Source: a virus. From it: DNA of 43,647 nucleotides. A program made the translations under genes and the position numbers. Shown in pieces: positions 17,218 through 24,718 of this stretch. The stretch lies in IMG/VR virus record IMGVR_UViG_3300045808_000015, one strand, 5' to 3'. The notes under the pieces were generated by a model that was not told where the DNA came from, made no database searches, and was given only the letters and a program-made list of their open reading frames with translations. Position 1 is the stretch's first letter; the number at the start of each line of letters is the position of its first letter.

Positions 17218-17679
17218 ATGGAAGAACAATATATTGTTTACGACAAAGAGGATGGTCTCATTTGCGCTGCTGACAAAGAAATGGCTGAAAAAGAATATAG
17301 AAAAGCAGTAGATTCAGCTCAGAGTTATTTAAATGGAATGTATCTTGACGGAGATGACATGGGATATCAAACAGTCCTTGCACAAGTAAAACAAGGATAT
17401 CTGCTGCAGATGAATGAAGCTGATAGTGAATGGGAAGAAGTATTTATAAAACCCCTGAAATTCAACGAAAACCAACAGATCGTATTGGAATGGCTGAAGA
17501 AAAAATACAAAACTACTGATATAGAACCAATTGAACTAATCTGGCGGCTTAGAGTTAATTCGAACTCAGATAGATGGAGACTTCAACCTCCATACAAAAA
17601 TTATCGCTATCTGACTGAGGCAGCACAGTTTGAAGTCCTAGCAGCCTTCGCAGAATGGGGGTGCGAATCTAGTGAATGA
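17218..17679 (+). CDS. Hypothetical protein
   Basis: ATG 5 nt after taggtg. Confidence 0.55.
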   Translation: MEEQYIVYDKEDGLICAADKEMAEKEYRKAVDSAQSYLNGMYLDGDDMGYQTVLAQVKQGYLLQMNEADSEWEEVFIKPLKFNENQQIVLEWLKKKYKTTDIEPIELIWRLRVNSNSDRWRLQPPYKNYRYLTEAAQFEVLAAFAEWGCESSE

Positions 17680-18226
17680 AGAATGGAAAACAATTGAGCT
17701 GGAAGGCCATTTATACGAGATATCCAATTTCGGCAGAGTGAGAAGTATCAGTAGATTTATTTACAGAAAAGATGGAATAAAAAGTTGGTACGAAGGTAAA
17801 GAACTTAATATTTTAAAAACTAATCGAGGGTACAAATTTGTAAATATAACAAACAAAAACAAGCATACATGTACTAGATATAAGCTCCACAGATTGGTGG
17901 CTGTTTGCTTTGTTGATGGAAAAACTAAAGAGAAAAAATATGTGAATCATATTGATGGAGATAAAAGTAACAATAATGCGAACAACCTTGAATGGGTAAC
18001 CGATGCGGAAAACAAAAGACATGCAGCAAAAAATAAACTTTATTGCCAGGGATCGCGACACCCAGAAGCTAAATTTACGGAAGAAAAAATCCAAGAAATT
18101 AGAAAACAATACAAAGCTGGAGTGAGTCAAGCAGAATTGAGAAAAATGTACCATGTCGCTAATGCAACTATGTTCAATATAGTCCACAATATTTCTTGGA
18201 AATCGGTGAAAGAGGTGGCGGAATAG
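17672..18226 (+). CDS. HNH homing endonuclease (NUMOD4 + HNH_3 type)
   Basis: EWKTIELEGHLYEISNFGRVRS (NUMOD4) and VNHIDGDKSNNNANNLEWVT (HNH). Confidence 0.85.
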   Translation: MNEEWKTIELEGHLYEISNFGRVRSISRFIYRKDGIKSWYEGKELNILKTNRGYKFVNITNKNKHTCTRYKLHRLVAVCFVDGKTKEKKYVNHIDGDKSNNNANNLEWVTDAENKRHAAKNKLYCQGSRHPEAKFTEEKIQEIRKQYKAGVSQAELRKMYHVANATMFNIVHNISWKSVKEVAE

Positions 18227-19481: not shown

Positions 19482-19706
19482 ATGAGCACGACAGAGGCTG
19501 TTTTTCGAATCATTTTGTTTATCGTTACATGGCGTATAGTCGCTTCTATATTCAAATCGTACAATAAAGCAATTAATGAACTGAATAAACGAATGAAAAC
19601 GTTGGAGACACAAAAAGATCTCTACATTGAATTCATTATGAAATTGAATGAAATTTTGAATAAAAGTGATAGCAAAGATACAGAACAACGGGGGAAGAAT
19701 GATTGA
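19482..19706 (+). CDS. Small membrane/coiled-coil protein
   Basis: RBS aggagggg. N-terminal hydrophobic helix. Confidence 0.55.
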   Translation: MSTTEAVFRIILFIVTWRIVASIFKSYNKAINELNKRMKTLETQKDLYIEFIMKLNEILNKSDSKDTEQRGKND

Positions 19707-20116
19707 GTAGAAATGATTATCTCATAAACGAATTAGACAGGAAGTTTGCGAATTATCCGAATTACAATAGAGAAATCGCGATTCGAAAAGAAGAACTAAA
19801 AATGAAAGAGGCTGATGAGAACATCGGCGGCGGTAAAGGGAACATTCGTAGCAATCCTGTTGAACAGCAAGTAATTAAAGAGTTATCTGATCCGTATATT
19901 GTCAATCGGCAGCTTTGGAAGAAGTGTATCAGGGAGACTTTAGAAAGTCAGAGCGCTGATATTAGAAAACTGATGGAGCTTAAATACTGGGGTGAAGATA
20001 GTTGGATGGATTGGGTAAGTTTTGGTCAAAAACATGGATATGCTCAAAAGACTATTTATCGATTGCGGCAGAAAATTTTACTTGATTTTGGAAGACGAAT
20101 TGGGGAAATCAATTAA
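19703..20116 (+). CDS. rinA: RinA/ArpU-family late-gene transcriptional activator
   Basis: ADENIGGGKGNIRSNPVE matches the RinA-family DENIGGGKSN motif. Position is immediately upstream of the packaging region. Confidence 0.75.
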   Translation: MSRNDYLINELDRKFANYPNYNREIAIRKEELKMKEADENIGGGKGNIRSNPVEQQVIKELSDPYIVNRQLWKKCIRETLESQSADIRKLMELKYWGEDSWMDWVSFGQKHGYAQKTIYRLRQKILLDFGRRIGEIN

Positions 20117-20603
20117 AATGACACAAAAGTGGGTAGTTTTGTCACTGTCAACCCCTATATAATTGTATTATCAGAGAGTTTTAAATAATCCATCAAACAG
20201 ACGACTCAAATTAACTTTATTGGCATGAAGTTTCTTCTTATACCTCTTAACATACAAACGTCTAGCTTGGTGGGTTATTCTCTTTTTGACTACACTGCCA
20301 CTTTGCGGAAACAGAGTAGGCAAACAATTGACGGCATGAAATAATGATTTCTACATTGAGCATGCCGTCTTTATGTCACTGTGGCGGAAGTAGAAGACGT
20401 GTTGCATGCGTGCGAGGTTAATGCTTAGGCAACCATGAGTGGGGCGGTGCCACTCCAGTGACTTAGACGAAAGGTAACTTAAATGTGACCACATCAGTAT
20501 CGTCAGCGAGCTGATAAAGGTAACTAGTAGACTCTAGGATTTAAGATAGTCTTGCCGATTAGTCAATCTCAACAGCAAGCTTGCAGGAGGTAGCTCCTCC
20601 AGT

Positions 20604-20678
20604 TGACGTGTAGCATCATGGTGATGCATCTGACTGTCAGAGTTGGAAATGAGGTCGGTTCGATCCCGGCCACGTCAA
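20604..20678 (+). ncRNA. tRNA-like element lacking a functional anticodon loop
   Basis: Acceptor tgacgtg/cacgtca. D arm gcat-catggtg-atgc. T arm gtcgg-TTCGATC-ccggc. The anticodon position is a 5-bp stem tctga/tcaga with a 3-nt loop. Confidence 0.55.
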
Positions 20679-20917
20679 TAGGGACGAAGGTGCCCAAGAA
20701 ACATCGGGACATAAGCGCCCACAAATAGCAACCGAGCATTCCTATCTGCCAGTCATGGATAAACAGTGGGTTCCATAATGGAGTAGGTTGCTTAATTTAA
20801 TGTCAATACTCTCATTCCTGTTTAGGCAGATGCGTTCTGAGGTGAGAGTTTTAATTATTAATAGAACCCCGTACACCTCTCAACGATGTGTCCCAAGCGG
20901 GGACGATATACATAATC

Positions 20918-20946
20918 AAGATCGCTTAGGCGGTCTTTTTATTTTG
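20918..20946 (+). terminator. Intrinsic terminator at the end of the non-coding region
   Basis: Stem gatcgc/gcggtc (one G-U pair), loop ttag, followed by tttttatttt. Confidence 0.65.
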
Positions 20947-21068
20947 CACACAAAAATAGACCGCTGTTTCCGCAGCGGCCAAATGAAAAACAAATTTTTA
21001 AAAAGGATGATACGTAGAAATTATATCATTGTAACGCTTACAGGACAATGCGGAAAAGGAATATAAAA

Positions 21069-21296
21069 ATGAGAAACTATTGGTATGTGTCACTAAACAA
21101 TAAATATCCTTTGCCAATGAGAGGTCAACATAAACGGGTGGTGATGTCTGTTCAGATGAAGGCGAAGTATTCGATCGTAGAAATGACCAGGGAAGCAACA
21201 CCGGTTGAGGTTGATCAGTGCAAGATGGTCTATTGTGGGTTTGGTTATTGGAAAGAGGAACATGTGCAAGAGAACATAAAGAGGTGGTTAAGATGA
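21069..21296 (+). CDS. Hypothetical protein (75 aa)
   Basis: ORF with a weak RBS. ATGA-coupled to the next gene. Confidence 0.45.
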   Translation: MRNYWYVSLNNKYPLPMRGQHKRVVMSVQMKAKYSIVEMTREATPVEVDQCKMVYCGFGYWKEEHVQENIKRWLR

Positions 21297-21556
21297 CTAT
21301 ATACAAATATCTAGTTGTGGGTGAGACGGTGAAACAAGCTGAGCATTATATCAAAATGTTTGATGAAACCTTCCACGATAAATGCAAGGCAATTTCTATA
21401 ACAGTTATGAAACATACAGAACCAGCTCCAGCAATGCATATTATTTTTACTGAGTCATTTGGCGAGAGAGCGGATATAAAAGATGTCCGGTTTGCTCGAA
21501 ACTATTTTGGTTTATGCCGGCGATTGGCGAATGGTTTCTTAGAGGAATCAACATGA
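21293..21556 (+). CDS. Hypothetical protein (87 aa)
   Basis: RBS aagaggtgg. ATGA overlaps on both sides. Confidence 0.55.
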   Translation: MTIYKYLVVGETVKQAEHYIKMFDETFHDKCKAISITVMKHTEPAPAMHIIFTESFGERADIKDVRFARNYFGLCRRLANGFLEEST

Positions 21557-22277: not shown

Positions 22278-22589
22278 ATGATTGAAGTAACAACTAAAGC
22301 AGATAGAGCTAAGTTCTATTCATCAAGCGAGTGGAAGCAGCTAAGGCAAGAAGTGCTGGAACGTGATCACTACGAGTGTCTATGGTGTAAAGAAGAGGGC
22401 AAGGTTACAACTATTAATGATGCTATCTTGGAAGTGGATCACATTAAAGAACTTGAATATCACCCAGAACTTGCTACTGATATAGATAATCTAAGAACAT
22501 TATGCAAAGAATGCCACAATAAACGGCATAGTCGTATGAATTATCGCGGAGCAGAACGTAAGAAAAAATTTGATGATGAATGGTGGTAG
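22278..22589 (+). CDS. HNH endonuclease (packaging-associated type)
   Basis: CLWC ... EVDHIKELEYHPELATDIDNLRTLCKECHNKRH. Lies immediately upstream of the terminase genes. Confidence 0.85.
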   Translation: MIEVTTKADRAKFYSSSEWKQLRQEVLERDHYECLWCKEEGKVTTINDAILEVDHIKELEYHPELATDIDNLRTLCKECHNKRHSRMNYRGAERKKKFDDEWW

Positions 22590-22718: not shown

Positions 22719-23078
22719 ATGGCGGATTTAAAAATCAGAAATGAAAAGGTAGCAGCTGAGGAAAAACGATTGAATGACTTATTTTACGATCTTGCAGATG
22801 ACAAGAAAAAAGTCGTATCTGGATTAGTAACTCAAGCAGCTAGATTAAAAATTTTGTTAGATGAAATGTGGATTGATATTTCTGAAAAAGGAGATTATGA
22901 ATTATTCTCACAGTCAGAAAATCAGATTCCTTACGAAAGGGAGCGGCCAGTTGCTAAACAATATAATGCACGAGATCAATCGTATCAGCGGATTGTCAAG
23001 CAGTTAACAGACTATTTGCCAGAAGAAAAACGAGAAGCAGCTACCACTGCAGCTTTGGATGGTAGTGATCTCTTATGA
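22719..23078 (+). CDS. terS: Putative terminase small subunit
   Basis: Position, size, and a 4-nt overlap with terL. RBS aaaggaag. Confidence 0.55.
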   Translation: MADLKIRNEKVAAEEKRLNDLFYDLADDKKKVVSGLVTQAARLKILLDEMWIDISEKGDYELFSQSENQIPYERERPVAKQYNARDQSYQRIVKQLTDYLPEEKREAATTAALDGSDLL

Positions 23079-24718
23079 CGTTGCTTCAACCATATTTTTT
23101 TGACGAATACGTGGACTTGTACGAGCGAGGTGCTATCCCGTTTAACAAGGAACGCATTCAACTAGTCGAGTATTTAAAAAAAGAAGTTCTGGTCCGAGAT
23201 GATTTATATTTCGATAATGAAATGATTCAAAAATTTATTTTATATGCTGAGAAAAATTTTTTTCCTTTAGCAAAGTATCAAAAATTCATGACACCTTTCA
23301 TTTTTCTTTACAAAAAAGAAGATGATGAGGTGTTTTTTAATGAAATTTTGAACTCGATAGCACGCGGTGGTGGTAAAAATGGTTTTATGTCAGCTAGAGA
23401 CTCGTTTTTTATTTCCCCACTTTACGGAGTTCGAAACTACGATGTGACGATTACAGCCAATTCCGAAAAACAAGGGAAAGTGAGTTTTAAAGAAGTTTAC
23501 GAAACCGTTCAAGCAAAACGTTTAGAACAGCAATTTTACCTGACAAAAATGGCAATCACGAACCGAGTTACGAATTCTATCTTTAGTTATCGGACGAATA
23601 ATCCTAAAACCATGGATAGTGCCCGTGATGGATGTCTTGAATTTGATGAAATCCATATGTTTGAAAACTCGGATATTGTTGATATCCAGCGAAGTGGATT
23701 AGGGAAAATCAAACATCCACGCACATTTTACAACGGTACAAACGGGCATGTTCGAGAAGGTTTTTATGACCGAACATTAGAACGAGCACAAAAAATATTT
23801 ACTGGTGAAAACAAGAATGATCGTTTATTCCCGTTTATATGCAAACTGGACACGATCGAAGAAATGGACAAGCCAGAATTGTGGTCGAAAGCGAATCCGA
23901 TGTTTGAAGAAGAATCATCCTACGCAAAACGCCTGTATTCAACGGTTATGGATGAATACTTGAAATTAGAAGAAGAACCCTCTGGTCGCCGTGAATTCGT
24001 TGTAAAACGGATGAATTTTACAGAAGGCGACATGGAAACGGATATAACTACACATGATAAATTAATGGCTACCGATCAACCTATTGGTGATTTGAAAGGA
24101 AAATCATGTGTGGCTGGTTTTGACTATGCCGAAATTCGGGATTTTGCAAGCGTTGGGCTGTTGTTTAAACGTGAAGAGAAGTTTATTTGGATGCAGCATA
24201 GTTTTGCACGGAAAGAGTTCTTAGATACATTCAAAATTAAAGCACCGATAAAAGAATGGACGGAAAAAGGTATATTCACAATTGTGGACGCGCCGTCTAT
24301 TTCTCCCCAACTACTGATTGATTGGTTGAACGAAAAGCGTGAACTGTATCAAATTGAAATGGTGTGCGCGGATGGTTACCGAATGGATTTACTGCAACCG
24401 TTACTTGAAAAAGAAGGGTATAACTATGAATTTATTCGAAATATTCGTGGCGTGCAATCGAAAGTGGCGCCAATTATTGAAGATGGTTTTGCGAACGAAA
24501 AATTTATTTTTGGCGATGATCCATCGATGCGATGGTACACAAATAACAGCTATGCAAAAGTAGATAAATCAGGAAATAAAACATTCTTGAAAAAAGAACC
24601 AGTCCGTAGAAAGACAGATGGTTTTCATGCGTTTTTAGCGGCTTTATATAAACGAGAAGAAATTCAAGATGTTGATTTAGAAGGCTTTTTTGACATGATG
24701 GAAAATTGGGACTTTTAA
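23075..24718 (+). CDS. terL: Terminase large subunit
   Basis: Size, Walker-A-like ARGGGKNG, and position before the portal gene. Confidence 0.9.
   Translation: MTLLQPYFFDEYVDLYERGAIPFNKERIQLVEYLKKEVLVRDDLYFDNEMIQKFILYAEKNFFPLAKYQKFMTPFIFLYKKEDDEVFFNEILNSIARGGGKNGFMSARDSFFISPLYGVRNYDVTITANSEKQGKVSFKEVYETVQAKRLEQQFYLTKMAITNRVTNSIFSYRTNNPKTMDSARDGCLEFDEIHMFENSDIVDIQRSGLGKIKHPRTFYNGTNGHVREGFYDRTLERAQKIFTGENKNDRLFPFICKLDTIEEMDKPELWSKANPMFEEESSYAKRLYSTVMDEYLKLEEEPSGRREFVVKRMNFTEGDMETDITTHDKLMATDQPIGDLKGKSCVAGFDYAEIRDFASVGLLFKREEKFIWMQHSFARKEFLDTFKIKAPIKEWTEKGIFTIVDAPSISPQLLIDWLNEKRELYQIEMVCADGYRMDLLQPLLEKEGYNYEFIRNIRGVQSKVAPIIEDGFANEKFIFGDDPSMRWYTNNSYAKVDKSGNKTFLKKEPVRRKTDGFHAFLAALYKREEIQDVDLEGFFDMMENWDF

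What the first reader, a model, noticed from the sequence alone, without database searches (positions are those of the whole stretch)
20117..21068. About 0.9 kb of GC-rich, helix-dense non-coding DNA after rinA: candidate giant ornate RNA (GOLLD/ROOL-like)
Seen in sequence:
- Most intergenic gaps in this genome are under 40 bp, yet this stretch has no RBS-preceded ORF.
- The two 60-nt lines I hand-counted (from 20401 and 20641) are about 57-58% GC. Typical coding lines elsewhere are about 25-40%.
- There are many exact helices: gacggcatg (20330..20338) with catgccgtc (20361..20369); gagtgg/ccactc (20437..20455); a possible enclosing pair gtcactg (20375..20381) with cagtgac (20456..20462); ggagg/cctcc (about 20586..20600); agact/agtct (about 20531..20554).
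- The motif AAAGGTAACT is duplicated (20470, 20516).
- A tRNA-like element is embedded, and the region ends in an intrinsic terminator (20918..20946).

Established knowledge: GOLLD and ROOL are very large structured RNAs found in Lactobacillales phages and prophages, often next to or containing tRNAs. Their function is still unknown.

Inference: this locus encodes such an RNA, or a new class with similar properties. It would be expressed with or just before the late operon.
Basis: partly seen in the sequence, partly recalled or inferred. Interest (0 to 1): 0.8.

Follow-up and report, generated by a model that had tools for sequence, protein, structure and literature searches.

The report
Mosaic phage array of small RNAs
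The 0.9-kb gene-free stretch after the late-gene activator of this Enterococcus prophage is not a GOLLD/ROOL giant RNA but a string of separate small structured RNA modules (tRNA-derived scaffolds, a crippled tRNA, an abiF-antitoxin-like hairpin, and a circularly permuted copy of an undescribed RNA that elsewhere sits beside HEPN-nuclease defence-type genes), and it most likely works as an RNA-based counter-defence cassette.

Summary
Window 20117-21068 has no conserved ORF, the quoted helices are at the stated coordinates, and it contains a tRNA-like element and an intrinsic terminator. The GOLLD/ROOL reading fails: Rfam 15 gives no GOLLD or ROOL match even at E<=10.

About 40 related Enterococcus phage loci show a mosaic of independently shuffled modules, each kept by compensatory base changes:
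- M1, a long hairpin.
- H, a hairpin.
- M2, a tRNA-Leu-derived scaffold whose anticodon domain is replaced by "cargo" (74 distinct elements, about 29 cargo types).
- M3, a structured spacer.
- A tRNA-like element with a collapsed anticodon loop; relatives carry tRNA-Lys(UUU) in that slot.
- M4, M5 and M6.
- M7, an abiF-motif-like hairpin.
- A conserved terminator.

M5 (20727-20796) is a circular permutation of a ~90-nt stand-alone RNA absent from Rfam. A model built only from the stand-alone form hits M5 at 60.7 bits (E 1e-16). That RNA lies tail-to-tail with DUF3644/EC042_2821 HEPN-REase genes (PADLOC PDC-S19), or upstream of AbiL-like genes, in type I R-M islands, prophages and satellites. 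The window encodes no such protein.

Best reading: a co-transcribed array of small RNAs acting as decoys or antitoxin mimics. The function is inferred, not shown.

The parts
20187..20283 (+). M1: a long hairpin (UAAUCCAUCAAaCAGACG / CGUCUaGCUUGGUGGGUUA) enclosing a highly conserved CU-rich interior.
   Evidence: Present in 12 distinct homologues. L046 carries compensatory changes (CC->UU with GG->AA). RNAalifold predicts the stem. Short ORFs across it are not conserved.
20330..20369 (+). H: a 9-bp hairpin (GACGGCAUG / CAUGCCGUC) with a variable loop, followed by UUUAU.
   Evidence: Coordinates verified. It covaries with GGCGGCAC / GUGCCGCC in L003, L034 and L110, where the loop content is different.
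20375..20462 (+). M2: a tRNA-Leu-derived scaffold RNA.
- 7-bp acceptor stem GUCACUG / CAGUGAC.
- Class II D arm UGGCGGAAGUAGAAGACG.
- T-arm-like hairpin AGUGG-GGCGGUG-CCACU.
- The anticodon and variable arms are replaced by a 32-nt 'cargo' of the 88-nt type.
   Evidence: 74 distinct elements share the scaffold, with about 29 cargo clusters and total lengths of 49-288 nt. The 80-81-nt members look like ordinary class II (tRNA-Leu-type) tRNA genes by length, D arm and T arm, judged by eye. The T stem covaries (CG/AU/UA; AU/GC/CG; AU/UA/GC; GC/UA). Acceptor pair 4 is A-U or G-C. ARAGORN and the Rfam tRNA model do not call it a tRNA.
20463..20602 (+). M3: a conserved structured spacer. It holds both AAAGGUAAC copies (20470, 20516) and the hairpin GGAGG-UAGCU-CCUCC (20586-20600) just before the tRNA-like element.
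   Evidence: 79-88% identical in L001, L003, L013 and L128. It shows a compensatory AUCAG/CUGAU <-> AUCAA/UUGAU change. It is absent or replaced in L009, L010 and L011.
20603..20679 (+). A tRNA-like element.
- 8-bp acceptor helix.
- Normal D arm and normal T arm (UUCGAUC loop).
- Aberrant anticodon region: either a 3-nt loop on the stem UCUGA/UCAGA, or a 7-nt loop UGUCAGA with G33 and anticodon UCA.
   Evidence: Rfam tRNA model 37.3 bits, with 4 loop positions deleted. ARAGORN calls it 'tRNA-SeC(tca)'. Homologues in the same slot: tRNA-Lys(UUU) in L001 and L149; 'Stop(UUA)' in L010, L011, L140 and L145; Ile(UAU) in L013. These share the identical acceptor stem and show compensatory D- and T-stem changes.
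20680..20726 (+). M4: a short conserved block with the core AUCGGGACAUAAGCGCCCAC.
   Evidence: The core is 90-97% conserved in L001, L006/L176, L010, L013, L097 and L167, while its 5' part varies. No convincing structure was found.
20727..20796 (+). M5: a circularly permuted copy of a ~90-nt three-stem RNA.
- Closing stem AGCAACC / GGUUGCU (equivalent to P3 of the stand-alone form).
- CUG/CAG and CCA/UGG, capped by GUCA where the stand-alone form has P1.
- Hairpin UUCCA-UAA-UGGAG (P2).
- Conserved junctions GAGCAUUCCUAU, AUAAA and UGGG.
   Evidence: Model R1, built only from 24 stand-alone RNAs, hits 20727-20792 on the + strand at 60.7 bits, E 1.2e-16; the next best hit is 10.9 bits. On 38 distinct sequences, 99.1% of cells are paired against 29-46% in the slid controls, and 7 of 23 pairs carry double changes. 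No Rfam match.
20808..20849 (+). M6: a hairpin with outer stem ACUCUCA / UGAGAGU and a branched interior.
   Evidence: 7 distinct homologues. There is a compensatory UAC..GUU <-> UGC..GCU change at the base of the stem, and L035 and L148 have a different interior.
20867..20903 (+). M7: an abiF-motif-like hairpin. It has a 6-bp outer stem, a 1-nt bulge, a 3-bp inner stem, an 11-nt loop CUCUCAACGAU and a 6-nt 3' bulge.
   Evidence: Rfam RF03085 scores 18.0 bits here (E 4.9). Its homologues score 30.2 bits (L011, E 0.028) and 26.2 bits (L068), in each case the top family; the gathering score is 37. Compensatory stems are seen: CCCCGY/GCGGGG <-> CCGCAA/UUGCGG and CAC/GUG <-> CGC/GCG. It is an indel among homologues, absent from L006.
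20918..20946 (+). The intrinsic terminator that closes the array (AAGAUCGCUUAGGCGGUCUU + UUUAUUUU).
   Evidence: Found by the pattern scan. Conserved in about 20 loci together with the leader AAUACAUAAUCAA, with compensatory stem variants.
20959..20980 (-). A convergent terminator-like hairpin on the minus strand. With 20918-20946 it forms a back-to-back terminator pair between the array and the late operon.
   Evidence: Found by the pattern scan. Present in only some relatives.

Best explanation
SHOWN. The stretch is a mosaic array of separate small structured RNA modules on the + strand. It lies between the RinA/ArpU-like activator gene (19703-20116) and the late operon, and a conserved intrinsic terminator (20918-20946) closes it. 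The modules are M1, H, M2, M3, the tRNA-like element, M4, M5, M6 and M7. Each is conserved and carries compensatory base changes. They recombine independently among about 40 related Enterococcus phage loci. The stretch is not a GOLLD or ROOL RNA.

Three modules derive from recognisable RNAs:
- M2 is a tRNA-Leu-type scaffold carrying a foreign 'cargo' domain in place of the anticodon arm.
- 20603-20679 is a tRNA whose anticodon loop has collapsed. Relatives carry tRNA-Lys(UUU) in the same slot.
- M5 is a circular permutation of a ~90-nt stand-alone RNA. Elsewhere that RNA is paired with DUF3644/EC042_2821 HEPN-REase genes or with AbiL/Abi_2 genes.
M7 resembles the abiF antitoxin RNA motif.

INFERRED.
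1. The array is transcribed as one precursor, either by read-through from rinA or from an unmapped promoter.
2. The precursor is cut into stable units by the tRNA-processing enzymes RNase P and RNase Z at the tRNA-like elements.
3. The released RNAs act as counter-defence decoys. M5 and M7 would bind and neutralise HEPN-type abortive-infection nucleases carried by resident prophages, satellites or R-M islands, as antitoxin mimics in the way pseudo-ToxI does. The anticodon-less tRNA-Lys derivative and the tRNA scaffolds would act as uncleavable competitors or as carriers for further decoy domains.

The permutation would let M5 sit inside a polycistronic array, because the P1 stem of the stand-alone form doubles as its terminator.

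The confidence of 0.5 is for the whole statement. The structural part (a modular array, not GOLLD/ROOL, with M5 a permuted relative of the DUF3644-associated RNA) I hold at about 0.9. The counter-defence function I hold at about 0.4.
For: Not GOLLD/ROOL: no match at E<=10, whereas the positive control ROOL scores 254.7 bits in phage AVP.

Modularity: block-wise presence and absence across loci.

Structure conservation of the individual modules.

Strand: set by the tRNA model, the terminator, and abundant G.U pairs (for example U.G in 25/38, 18/38 and 38/38 sequences at three M5 pairs).

M5 homology: the R1 hit at 60.7 bits, E 1.2e-16.

The stand-alone form:
- It has a TATAAT box about 10 nt upstream and a P1 stem plus U-run terminator.
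- 41 of about 67 metagenome/MAG loci have a DUF3644 gene ending 45-95 nt away on the opposite strand. Eleven have an AbiL-like gene directly downstream, and five of those also have an Abi_2 gene nearby.
- Protein identities: PF12358 4e-54, PF18740 1e-31, PADLOC PDC-S19 6e-147, Abi_2 5e-19, AbiLi 8e-20.
- The same RNA-gene pair occurs in a Streptococcus satellite and in Staphylococcus phages, next to the integrase gene.

Literature on the partner proteins and on the abiF motif:
- DUF3644 is a HEPN RNase family found in R-M operons (PMC3710099).
- A DUF3644 protein (HEC-08) defends against phage and needs the histidine of its Rx4-6H motif (bioRxiv 10.1101/2024.01.29.577857).
- The abiF motif RNA is an experimentally shown type III-like antitoxin of the AbiF HEPN toxin (PMC12373285).

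Orphan status: no Abi_2, DUF3644 or AbiL gene is in the window, and none lies near any of the 24 phage-type M5 copies.

Processing: in L034, L073 and L142 M5 starts 2 nt after the tRNA 3' acceptor strand.

tRNA-Lys(UUU), the classic target of the HEPN anticodon nuclease PrrC (PMC3710099), occupies the tRNA slot in L001 and L149.
Against: - No expression, processing or binding data exist; every functional step is by analogy.
- The function of the stand-alone RNA is itself unknown. It could be an antisense or terminator element rather than a protein-binding antitoxin. In one phage it is paired with a 'CapA' gene rather than a HEPN gene.
- M7 is below the Rfam gathering score in all three variants tested (18-30 bits against 37).
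- I could not show that Enterococcus hosts carry the DUF3644-RNA cassette. It was found in Streptococcus, Staphylococcus, Listeria, Ligilactobacillus, Fructilactobacillus and uncultured Bacillota.
- No promoter for the array was identified.
- M1, M3, M4, M6 and the M2 cargo have no identified counterpart.
Confidence: 0.5

Rival explanations
1. The stretch encodes one giant ornate RNA, either a very divergent GOLLD/ROOL relative or a new class of that kind. It would fold as a single ~0.8-kb molecule, with the tRNA-like element as an embedded domain.
For: - It sits in the setting typical of GOLLD and ROOL: a phage locus with tRNAs (PMC12286853, PMC5737381).
- It is probably co-transcribed, because there is no + strand terminator between the rinA stop codon and 20918.
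- The minimum free energy is lower than that of shuffles.
- GOLLD is also known to have a variable 5' region that sometimes contains tRNAs (PMC12286853).
Against: - No GOLLD, ROOL or other large-RNA match at E<=10.
- No block is common to all related loci apart from the terminator. Blocks are swapped, deleted and duplicated independently.
- M5 and the tRNA occur elsewhere as autonomous units.
- No conserved long-range helix was found.
Confidence: 0.1
2. The stretch is a decaying tRNA island: pseudogenes and recombination scars left by tRNA gene turnover, with no function of their own.
For: - M2 and 20603-20679 are clearly tRNA-derived but fail as canonical tRNAs.
- Relatives carry intact tRNAs in the same slot.
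- Mosaicism is typical of phage tRNA clusters (established knowledge).
Against: - Helices are maintained by compensatory changes in tRNA-derived and non-tRNA modules alike.
- This was the only part of a 12-kb query with a substantial nucleotide match (181 nt) in the phage database. The two other matches were about 46 nt each.
- The same scaffold carries about 29 recurrent cargo types, several of them in many phages.
Confidence: 0.07
3. The stretch is a cis-acting regulatory or processing region at the early-to-late boundary. It would be a structured 3' UTR that stabilises the rinA transcript and insulates the late operon, with the back-to-back terminators as possible targets of antitermination. 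The modules would act only in cis.
For: - Its position is fixed between the RinA/ArpU-like activator gene and the late genes in about 30 loci.
- It has a conserved terminator and a convergent partner.
- The segment 20952-21068 upstream of the first late gene is conserved.
Against: - M5 type B lies in a tRNA array of a lytic Herelleviridae phage, which is a different context.
- The stand-alone relative of M5 is an independent transcription unit.
- A stabiliser or insulator would not need about 29 interchangeable cargo domains.
Confidence: 0.13
4. The key product is a suppressor tRNA: UCA (opal) in the window and UUA (ochre) in close relatives. It would read through stop codons in late genes or host genes, and the rest of the stretch would be accessory.
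For: - ARAGORN assigns the anticodons UCA (window, L012) and UUA (L010, L011, L140, L145) on a 7-nt loop. Both read stop codons and they differ by one transition.
- The acceptor, D and T arms are intact.
Against: - Position 33 is G, not the near-universal U.
- The proposed anticodon stem has two G.U pairs.
- The Rfam alignment prefers a 3-nt loop.
- The late genes are intact long ORFs under code 11, for example 2076, 547 and 385 aa, so no recoding is needed.
Confidence: 0.05
5. The modules are the phage's own regulatory small RNAs or RNA antitoxins. They would belong to a phage-encoded toxin-antitoxin or superinfection-exclusion system, rather than being decoys aimed at host defences.
For: - The stand-alone relative of M5 and the abiF motif are themselves often prophage-borne, next to their protein partners (PMC12373285).
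- The interior of M1 is CU-rich, like anti-Shine-Dalgarno seed regions of Firmicutes sRNAs. This resemblance is from my own knowledge and is a lead only.
Against: No Abi_2, DUF3644 or AbiL-like partner gene is present in the window or near the 24 phage-type M5 copies. The flanking genes are small late-region ORFs of unknown function.
Confidence: 0.1

Closest known systems
GOLLD (RF01998) and ROOL (RF03087) large ornate RNAs
   Same: They occur in phages and prophages of Lactobacillales and other Bacillota, next to or mixed with tRNA genes, as long gene-free structured stretches. One module here (M5, type B) lies about 300 nt upstream of a true ROOL in Aerococcus phage AVP.
   Different: There is no covariance-model match, no conserved core and no conserved multi-junction or pseudoknot architecture. 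The stretch decomposes into independently mobile small units.
abiF RNA motif (RF03085) / RCd22, the type III-like RNA antitoxin of the AbiF (Abi_2 HEPN) toxin (PMC12373285)
   Same: M7 has the same hairpin architecture and the identical 11-nt loop CUCUCAACGAU. abiF is the top Rfam family for three variants of M7.
   Different: The scores (18-30 bits) are below the gathering score of 37. M7 is a single copy, whereas RCd22 has two. No abiF gene is adjacent, so it is an orphan in a phage ncRNA array.
Pseudo-ToxI of phage PhiTE and RNA anti-CRISPRs: phage-encoded mimics of a defence system's own RNA (recalled from my own knowledge; not checked in the paper library)
   Same: The proposed logic is the same: the phage carries an orphan copy of the RNA partner of a host or mobile-element defence nuclease.
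   Different: Here the copy is circularly permuted, embedded in a multi-module array punctuated by tRNA-like elements, and accompanied by a second, unrelated antitoxin-like motif. Mimicry is inferred, not demonstrated.
Phage tRNA islands and counter-defence tRNAs (for example T5 tRNA-Tyr against retron Ec78, bioRxiv 10.1101/2023.03.15.532788; tRNA-Lys as the PrrC/RloC target, PMC3710099)
   Same: The region is a mosaic cluster of tRNA genes in a phage, and relatives carry tRNA-Lys(UUU) in the same slot.
   Different: In the window no element is a canonical decoding tRNA. The anticodon domains are deleted or replaced.
Engineered 'tRNA scaffold' for expressing recombinant RNAs, and the tRNA-miRNA encoded RNAs (TMERs) of murine gammaherpesvirus 68 (both from my own knowledge)
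   Same: M2-type elements keep the acceptor, D and T arms and carry an unrelated structured insert where the anticodon arm should be. This is the design used to get stable, RNase P/Z-processed RNAs.
   Different: These elements are natural, phage-borne and diverse (about 29 cargo types). Processing and stability have not been tested.

Membership tests
GOLLD RNA (RF01998) | Match to the family covariance model, which captures the universally conserved 3' domain. | tested here: not met
   cmscan of 19900-21300 on both strands, with permissive filters and E<=10, gave no GOLLD match. There was also none at the gathering threshold on the whole window.
GOLLD RNA (RF01998) | Phage or prophage location next to, or containing, tRNAs. 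| tested here: met
   The window is a temperate siphophage. A tRNA-like element lies at 20603-20679. Context alone does not define membership.
ROOL RNA (RF03087) | Match to the family covariance model (~580 nt, six multistem junctions, three pseudoknots; PMC5737381). | tested here: not met
   No ROOL match at E<=10. The same search finds ROOL at 254.7 bits in phage AVP.
GOLLD/ROOL-type nanocage RNAs | Homo-oligomeric cage formation (PMC12286853). | not testable with these tools
   This needs cryo-EM or native gels of the transcript.
tRNA (RF00005), for 20603-20679 | Cloverleaf scoring above the family gathering score. | tested here: met
   37.3 bits against a gathering score of 29. ARAGORN also calls it.
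tRNA (RF00005), for 20603-20679 | A 7-nt anticodon loop with U33 on a stable 5-bp stem, that is, decoding competence. | tested here: not met
   The Infernal alignment deletes 4 loop positions, leaving a 3-nt loop. The alternative ARAGORN fold has G33 and two G.U pairs in the stem.
tRNA, class II (Leu-type), for M2 20375-20462 | Acceptor stem, class II D arm, T arm, and an anticodon arm. | tested here: not met
   The acceptor stem and D arm are present, and the T stem is present and covaries. There is no anticodon arm, and in the window copy the T loop GGCGGUG is non-canonical. Neither ARAGORN nor the tRNA model calls it.
abiF RNA motif (RF03085), for 20867-20903 | Score at or above the gathering score (37 bits). 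| tested here: not met
   18.0 bits in the window. Homologues score 30.2 and 26.2 bits.
abiF RNA motif (RF03085), for 20867-20903 | Hairpin architecture with the conserved loop CUCUCAACGAU. | tested here: met
   The alignment shows the identical loop, a 6+3-bp stem and both bulges. Compensatory stem changes occur among homologues.
abiF RNA motif (RF03085), for 20867-20903 | Location upstream of an abiF/Abi_2 gene. | tested here: not met
   No Abi_2 gene is in the window.
Unnamed ~90-nt RNA paired with DUF3644/AbiL genes (defined here), for M5 20727-20796 | Sequence-plus-structure match to a model built only from the stand-alone members. | tested here: met
   R1 hits at 60.7 bits, E 1.2e-16, with P1 replaced by a 3-nt loop. 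Caveat: the stand-alone members were retrieved with a pattern derived from the 3' half of M5.
Unnamed ~90-nt RNA paired with DUF3644/AbiL genes (defined here), for M5 20727-20796 | Own promoter, a P1 stem plus U-run terminator, and an adjacent DUF3644 or AbiL-like gene. | tested here: not met
   M5 is circularly permuted, has no P1 terminator and has no partner gene nearby. It is a permuted orphan relative, not a standard member.

The most novel reading that the evidence does not exclude
Temperate Enterococcus phages carry, between the late activator gene and the late operon, a hypervariable 'RNA anti-defence island'. It would be a co-transcribed array, punctuated by tRNA-like elements, of decoy RNAs.

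The decoys would include:
- A circularly permuted pseudo-antitoxin for a previously unrecognised RNA-plus-HEPN-REase (DUF3644 / PDC-S19) system.
- An abiF-antitoxin mimic.
- An uncleavable tRNA-Lys derivative.
- A natural tRNA-scaffold platform displaying dozens of interchangeable cargo domains.

As a by-product, this defines a new widespread RNA family as the RNA component of PDC-S19/AbiL-type systems.
Probability: 0.35. Interest if true: 0.9.

Novelty: new variant of a known kind. Interest (0 to 1): 0.78.

Why it matters
1. It removes a false GOLLD/ROOL candidate and shows what such 'helix-dense gaps next to tRNAs' can be instead.

2. It exposes two RNA families that are absent from Rfam 15:
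- A ~90-nt three-stem RNA found in about 65 metagenome/MAG loci and 48 phage or satellite records. It is almost always tail-to-tail with a DUF3644 HEPN-REase gene or upstream of an AbiL-like gene.
- A family of tRNA-Leu-derived scaffolds carrying about 29 different inserted domains.

3. If the decoy reading is right, phages counter HEPN-type abortive infection with arrays of RNA mimics. That is an RNA counterpart of protein anti-defence islands. The permuted M5 would then be a ready-made probe for the unknown mechanism of PDC-S19.

All of this is directly testable with a deletion, a plaque assay and a gel shift.

Tried and rejected
- GOLLD, ROOL and all other Rfam families: no match in the region except tRNA, plus weak abiF, AaHKsRNA82 (the terminators) and noise. 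The stand-alone M5 relatives also match nothing in Rfam.
- Protein-coding: short ORFs on both strands of M1 are not conserved. The 92-aa ORF 20788-21066 runs through the terminator and through modules that are indels in relatives.
- Finding relatives through the RinA-like protein in genome contigs: nothing found.
- The 18-mer GTTCCATAATGGAGTAGG in genome contigs: 21 hits, but about 17 are expected by chance in 596 Gb. Only the three Enterococcus hits and two MAG hits extend beyond the seed.
- The 15-mer GTCRCTGTGGCGGAA in viral contigs: more than 120 hits. Many are chance matches or look like ordinary tRNA-Leu-type genes, so they were filtered by requiring the 3' acceptor strand and the T arm.
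- tmRNA, intron-containing tRNA and self-cleaving ribozyme readings of M2 and M5: ARAGORN finds no tmRNA, and no ribozyme family matches. Circular permutation is reminiscent of ribozymes, but I found no hammerhead or twister core by eye.
- Wholesale stop-codon recoding: rejected because the late ORFs are intact.
- Other modules (M1, M3, M4, M6) as relatives of defence-island RNAs: no cross-match in the 74 metagenome loci, or in the plasmid and phage databases beyond phage-type loci.
- A promoter for the array: only weak sigma-70-like matches, at the level expected by chance.
Full report
**The observation**

Window 20117-21068 is the largest gene-free gap of a temperate siphophage. The phage has these genes:
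- Integrase, 3332-4468 on the minus strand.
- CI-like repressor, 5173-5832 on the minus strand.
- Primase/helicase genes.
- YopX.
- A RinA/ArpU-like activator, 19703-20116 (phrog_36 and phrog_248).
- HNH endonuclease, 22278-22589.
- Large terminase, 23075-24718.

The two hand-counted lines are 58.3% and 55.0% GC. The stretch as a whole is 42.0% GC against 37.8% for the window. ORFs in it are short and unconserved. ARAGORN and the Rfam tRNA model find a tRNA-like element at 20603-20679. An intrinsic-terminator-like site lies at 20918-20946, with a convergent partner at 20959-20980. The stretch folds better than dinucleotide shuffles on both strands (z = -3.6 and -4.3).

**The GOLLD/ROOL test**

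I ran cmscan against all 4227 Rfam 15 families, at the gathering threshold on the whole window and with permissive filters at E<=10 on 19900-21300. Within the stretch it gave the tRNA match, a weak abiF match and noise. There was no GOLLD, ROOL, OLE, raiA, HEARO or any other large RNA. The test has power: the same library finds ROOL at 254.7 bits in Aerococcus phage AVP. Membership of GOLLD or ROOL is therefore rejected.

**Relatives, and the mosaic they reveal**

Annotated phages gave only two nucleotide matches:
- Enterococcus phage EH-TP1 matches window 20455-20635. The match lies in an 833-nt unannotated gap after an ArpU-like gene and is followed by a real tRNA-Lys.
- Aerococcus phage AVP matches window 20726-20801. 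The match lies between tRNA-Tyr and tRNA-Leu, about 300 nt upstream of ROOL.

In a 12-kb query around the locus, the ncRNA stretch was the only part with a substantial nucleotide match (181 nt). The two other matches were about 46 nt each.

Exact-pattern scans of IMG/VR, GTDB genomes and metagenomes then gave about 40 truly related loci. Three are Enterococcus genomes (E. hailinensis, E. viikkiensis, Enterococcus sp. AZ128), so the host genus is Enterococcus.

All these loci share one layout:
- A 138-171-codon activator-like open reading frame.
- Then 0.6-1.4 kb without conserved ORFs.
- Then the same terminator, then the late genes.

Within that stretch the window sequence matches in blocks that are independently present, absent, replaced or duplicated. 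I named the blocks M1, H, M2, M3, the tRNA-like element, M4, M5, M6 and M7. This is not how a single RNA with one global fold evolves.

**Each block is a conserved structure**

- M1 (20187-20283) is a long hairpin. L046 carries compensatory CC->UU / GG->AA changes.
- H (20330-20369) covaries with GGCGGCAC / GUGCCGCC stems around different loops.
- M3 shows AUCAG/CUGAU <-> AUCAA/UUGAU.
- M6 and the terminator show compensatory variants.
- M7 shows CCCCGY/GCGGGG <-> CCGCAA/UUGCGG and CAC/GUG <-> CGC/GCG.

G.U pairs are frequent on the + strand. Together with the tRNA model and the terminator, this fixes the + strand as the RNA strand and argues against a DNA-level cruciform or a minus-strand RNA.

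**M2 is a tRNA scaffold with cargo**

All M2-type elements begin GUC(A/G)CUG-UG-GCGGAA..GACGC. That is a 7-nt acceptor strand plus the D arm of class II tRNAs.

They end with a 5-bp/7-nt hairpin directly abutting the complementary acceptor strand. Between the two ends lie 20-220 nt of unrelated sequence.

Among 74 distinct elements:
- The 80-81-nt members look like ordinary class II (tRNA-Leu-type) tRNA genes, judged by eye from their length, D arm and T arm.
- The others fall into about 29 'cargo' clusters, several of which recur in many phages.
- Some loci carry two elements in tandem.
- The T stem covaries at four of its five positions.
- T loops range from the canonical UUCGAUU to GGCGGUG, which is the window type.

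The window copy (20375-20462, 88 nt) shares its cargo type with elements that have a canonical T arm. In architecture this is the 'tRNA scaffold' used by RNA engineers (my own knowledge): the acceptor, D and T arms are kept and the anticodon arm is replaced.

**The tRNA-like element**

The element at 20603-20679 keeps an 8-bp acceptor helix, a D arm and a canonical T arm. Its anticodon region is aberrant: either a 3-nt loop (Infernal), or a 7-nt loop with G33 and anticodon UCA (ARAGORN).

Homologues with the identical acceptor stem are:
- tRNA-Lys(UUU) in EH-TP1 and L149.
- UUA in L010, L011, L140 and L145.
- UAU in L013.

These show compensatory D- and T-stem changes. A suppressor-tRNA reading is unlikely, both because of G33 and because the late genes are intact under code 11.

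**M5 is the key module**

Across phages it shows visible covariation. A degenerate pattern from its 3' half retrieved 74 metagenome loci. In most of them the same sequence blocks occur in a different order:
- TATAAT box.
- 5'-AAGAUAAC-UUGUGA-AGG-AUAAA-CGC-UGGG-UCCCA-GAA-UGGGG-UA-GGUAC(loop)GUACU-GAGCAUUCCUAU-GUG-CCU-GGG-GUUAUCUU, followed by a U-run.

That is a ~90-nt stand-alone RNA whose P1 stem plus U-run is its terminator. The window's M5 is its circular permutation. P3 is opened to become the closing stem AGCAACC/GGUUGCU, and P1 is capped by a tetraloop.

The structural evidence is:
- On a joint alignment of 38 distinct sequences (stand-alone forms rotated), 99.1% of 762 cells are paired, against 29-46% when partners are slid.
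- 7 of 23 pairs carry changes on both sides.
- The covariation score is 0.299, against at most 0.064 for the slid controls.
- A covariance model built only from 24 stand-alone RNAs hits window 20727-20792 at 60.7 bits, E 1.2e-16. The next best hit in the window is 10.9 bits.

Neither form matches any Rfam family.

**What the stand-alone RNA sits next to**

In the metagenome and MAG loci:
- In 41 of about 67 loci, a gene ends 45-95 nt away on the opposite strand. It encodes a DUF3644 (PF12358, 4e-54) plus EC042_2821 REase-like (PF18740, 1e-31) protein. This is PADLOC candidate system PDC-S19 (6e-147).
- That gene is often embedded among type I R-M genes.
- In 11 loci the RNA lies directly upstream of an AbiLi-like AAA_21 gene. 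In five of those an Abi_2/AbiD gene is divergent.

The pair recurs elsewhere:
- A diverged RNA copy sits next to a 51%-identical protein on an S. epidermidis replicon.
- The RNA is in 48 annotated phage or satellite records (Streptococcus 28, Staphylococcus 17, Listeria 2, Flavonifractor 1). In all three records inspected it lies in the lysogeny module beside the integrase gene.
- One phage has a second copy tail-to-tail with a 'CapA' gene.

From the literature:
- DUF3644 is a HEPN RNase family of R-M operons (PMC3710099).
- A DUF3644 protein, HEC-08, defends against phage in a manner that depends on the histidine of its Rx4-6H motif (bioRxiv 10.1101/2024.01.29.577857).

The protein here carries ELRNISTH, which fits Rx4H (read by eye).

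None of the 24 phage-type M5 copies has such a gene nearby, and the window has none at all.

**M7**

M7 (20867-20903) matches the abiF motif (RF03085) in architecture and has the identical 11-nt loop. It scores 18.0 bits here. Its homologues in L011 and L068 score 30.2 bits (E 0.028) and 26.2 bits, in each case the top family, but all are below the gathering score of 37.

The abiF motif RNA RCd22 has been shown experimentally to neutralise the AbiF (Abi_2 HEPN) toxin by direct binding, like a type III antitoxin (PMC12373285).

**Interpretation**

Shown: a mosaic array of small structured RNA modules, not a GOLLD or ROOL RNA.

Inferred: it is a co-transcribed precursor that is processed at the tRNA-like elements. 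In L034, L073 and L142 M5 begins 2 nt after the tRNA 3' acceptor strand.

Two unrelated modules resemble RNAs that partner HEPN-type abortive-infection proteins, yet they are orphans here. In addition, relatives carry tRNA-Lys(UUU), the classic target of the HEPN anticodon nuclease PrrC (PMC3710099). The most economical functional hypothesis is therefore RNA-based counter-defence:
- M5 and M7 act as antitoxin mimics.
- The anticodon-less tRNA derivative and the scaffolds act as uncleavable competitors or as carriers for further decoys.

The permutation is what one would expect if a terminator-bearing RNA had to be placed inside a polycistronic array.

The weak points are these:
- There are no expression or binding data.
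- The role of the stand-alone RNA is itself unknown.
- M7 is sub-threshold.
- The target cassette has not been shown in Enterococcus.
- Several modules have no known counterpart.

**Verdict**

Its family assignment is wrong. Its broader intuition, an unusual structured RNA locus tied to tRNAs, is right in spirit.

The locus is a new variant of known kinds (phage tRNA/ncRNA islands and RNA mimicry of defence RNAs). It exposes two RNA families not present in Rfam 15.

Noticed in passing
window 334-405 (+): A second odd tRNA-like gene sits at the left end of the window. It scores 40.2 bits against the Rfam tRNA model, but its anticodon loop has only 6 nt (ARAGORN: 'tRNA-???', a 2-base anticodon). 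It could be an attachment-site tRNA remnant or another non-decoding tRNA-like RNA.
   Followed up: no
window 495-1001 and 988-1632 (+): A Panacea/SocA-like antitoxin-domain protein (PF13274, 1.5e-09) overlaps a 214-aa ORF with no Pfam match. They lie beyond the integrase gene and look like a PanA-type toxin-antitoxin or defence moron at the prophage end.
   Followed up: no
window 20952-21068: The segment between the terminators and the first late gene (phrog_1202, start 21069) is 80-97% conserved in L003, L006, L009, L046, L140 and L145. It is a candidate RinA-dependent late promoter or operator.
   Followed up: no
L002 (Aerococcus phage AVP, MH729379) 3389-3967: An unannotated bona fide ROOL RNA (254.7 bits) lies downstream of a seven-tRNA array. 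The type-B M5 module sits between tRNA-Tyr and tRNA-Leu.
   Followed up: partly
L230 (Staphylococcus phage StB20-like, KT429161) 588-675 and 2418-2508: There are two copies of the stand-alone ~90-nt RNA. One is tail-to-tail with the DUF3644 homologue. The other is tail-to-tail with a gene annotated CapA, which suggests that the RNA can pair with different cargo genes.
   Followed up: partly
L032 1921-2199 and L193 2447-2669: FuFi-1 RNA (RF02986, 93 and 110 bits), a phage-associated RNA of unknown function, lies 2-2.5 kb from the stand-alone M5-family RNA in two unrelated contigs.
   Followed up: no
L149, positions 991-1536 of the extracted stretch: One related phage has a 182-codon open frame inserted inside the ncRNA array, between the M1/H modules and its tRNA-Lys. 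The array therefore also accepts protein-coding inserts.
   Followed up: no
L157-type metagenome loci (L157, L190, L191, L205, L207): In these loci the stand-alone RNA is the 5' leader of an AbiLi-like AAA_21 gene, and an Abi_2/AbiD gene is divergent about 500 nt upstream. This is a second, different gene context for the same RNA.
   Followed up: partly
window 17672-18226 (+): A NUMOD4 + HNH_3 homing-endonuclease-like gene lies in the early region, separate from the HNH gene at 22278-22589 next to the terminase.
   Followed up: no
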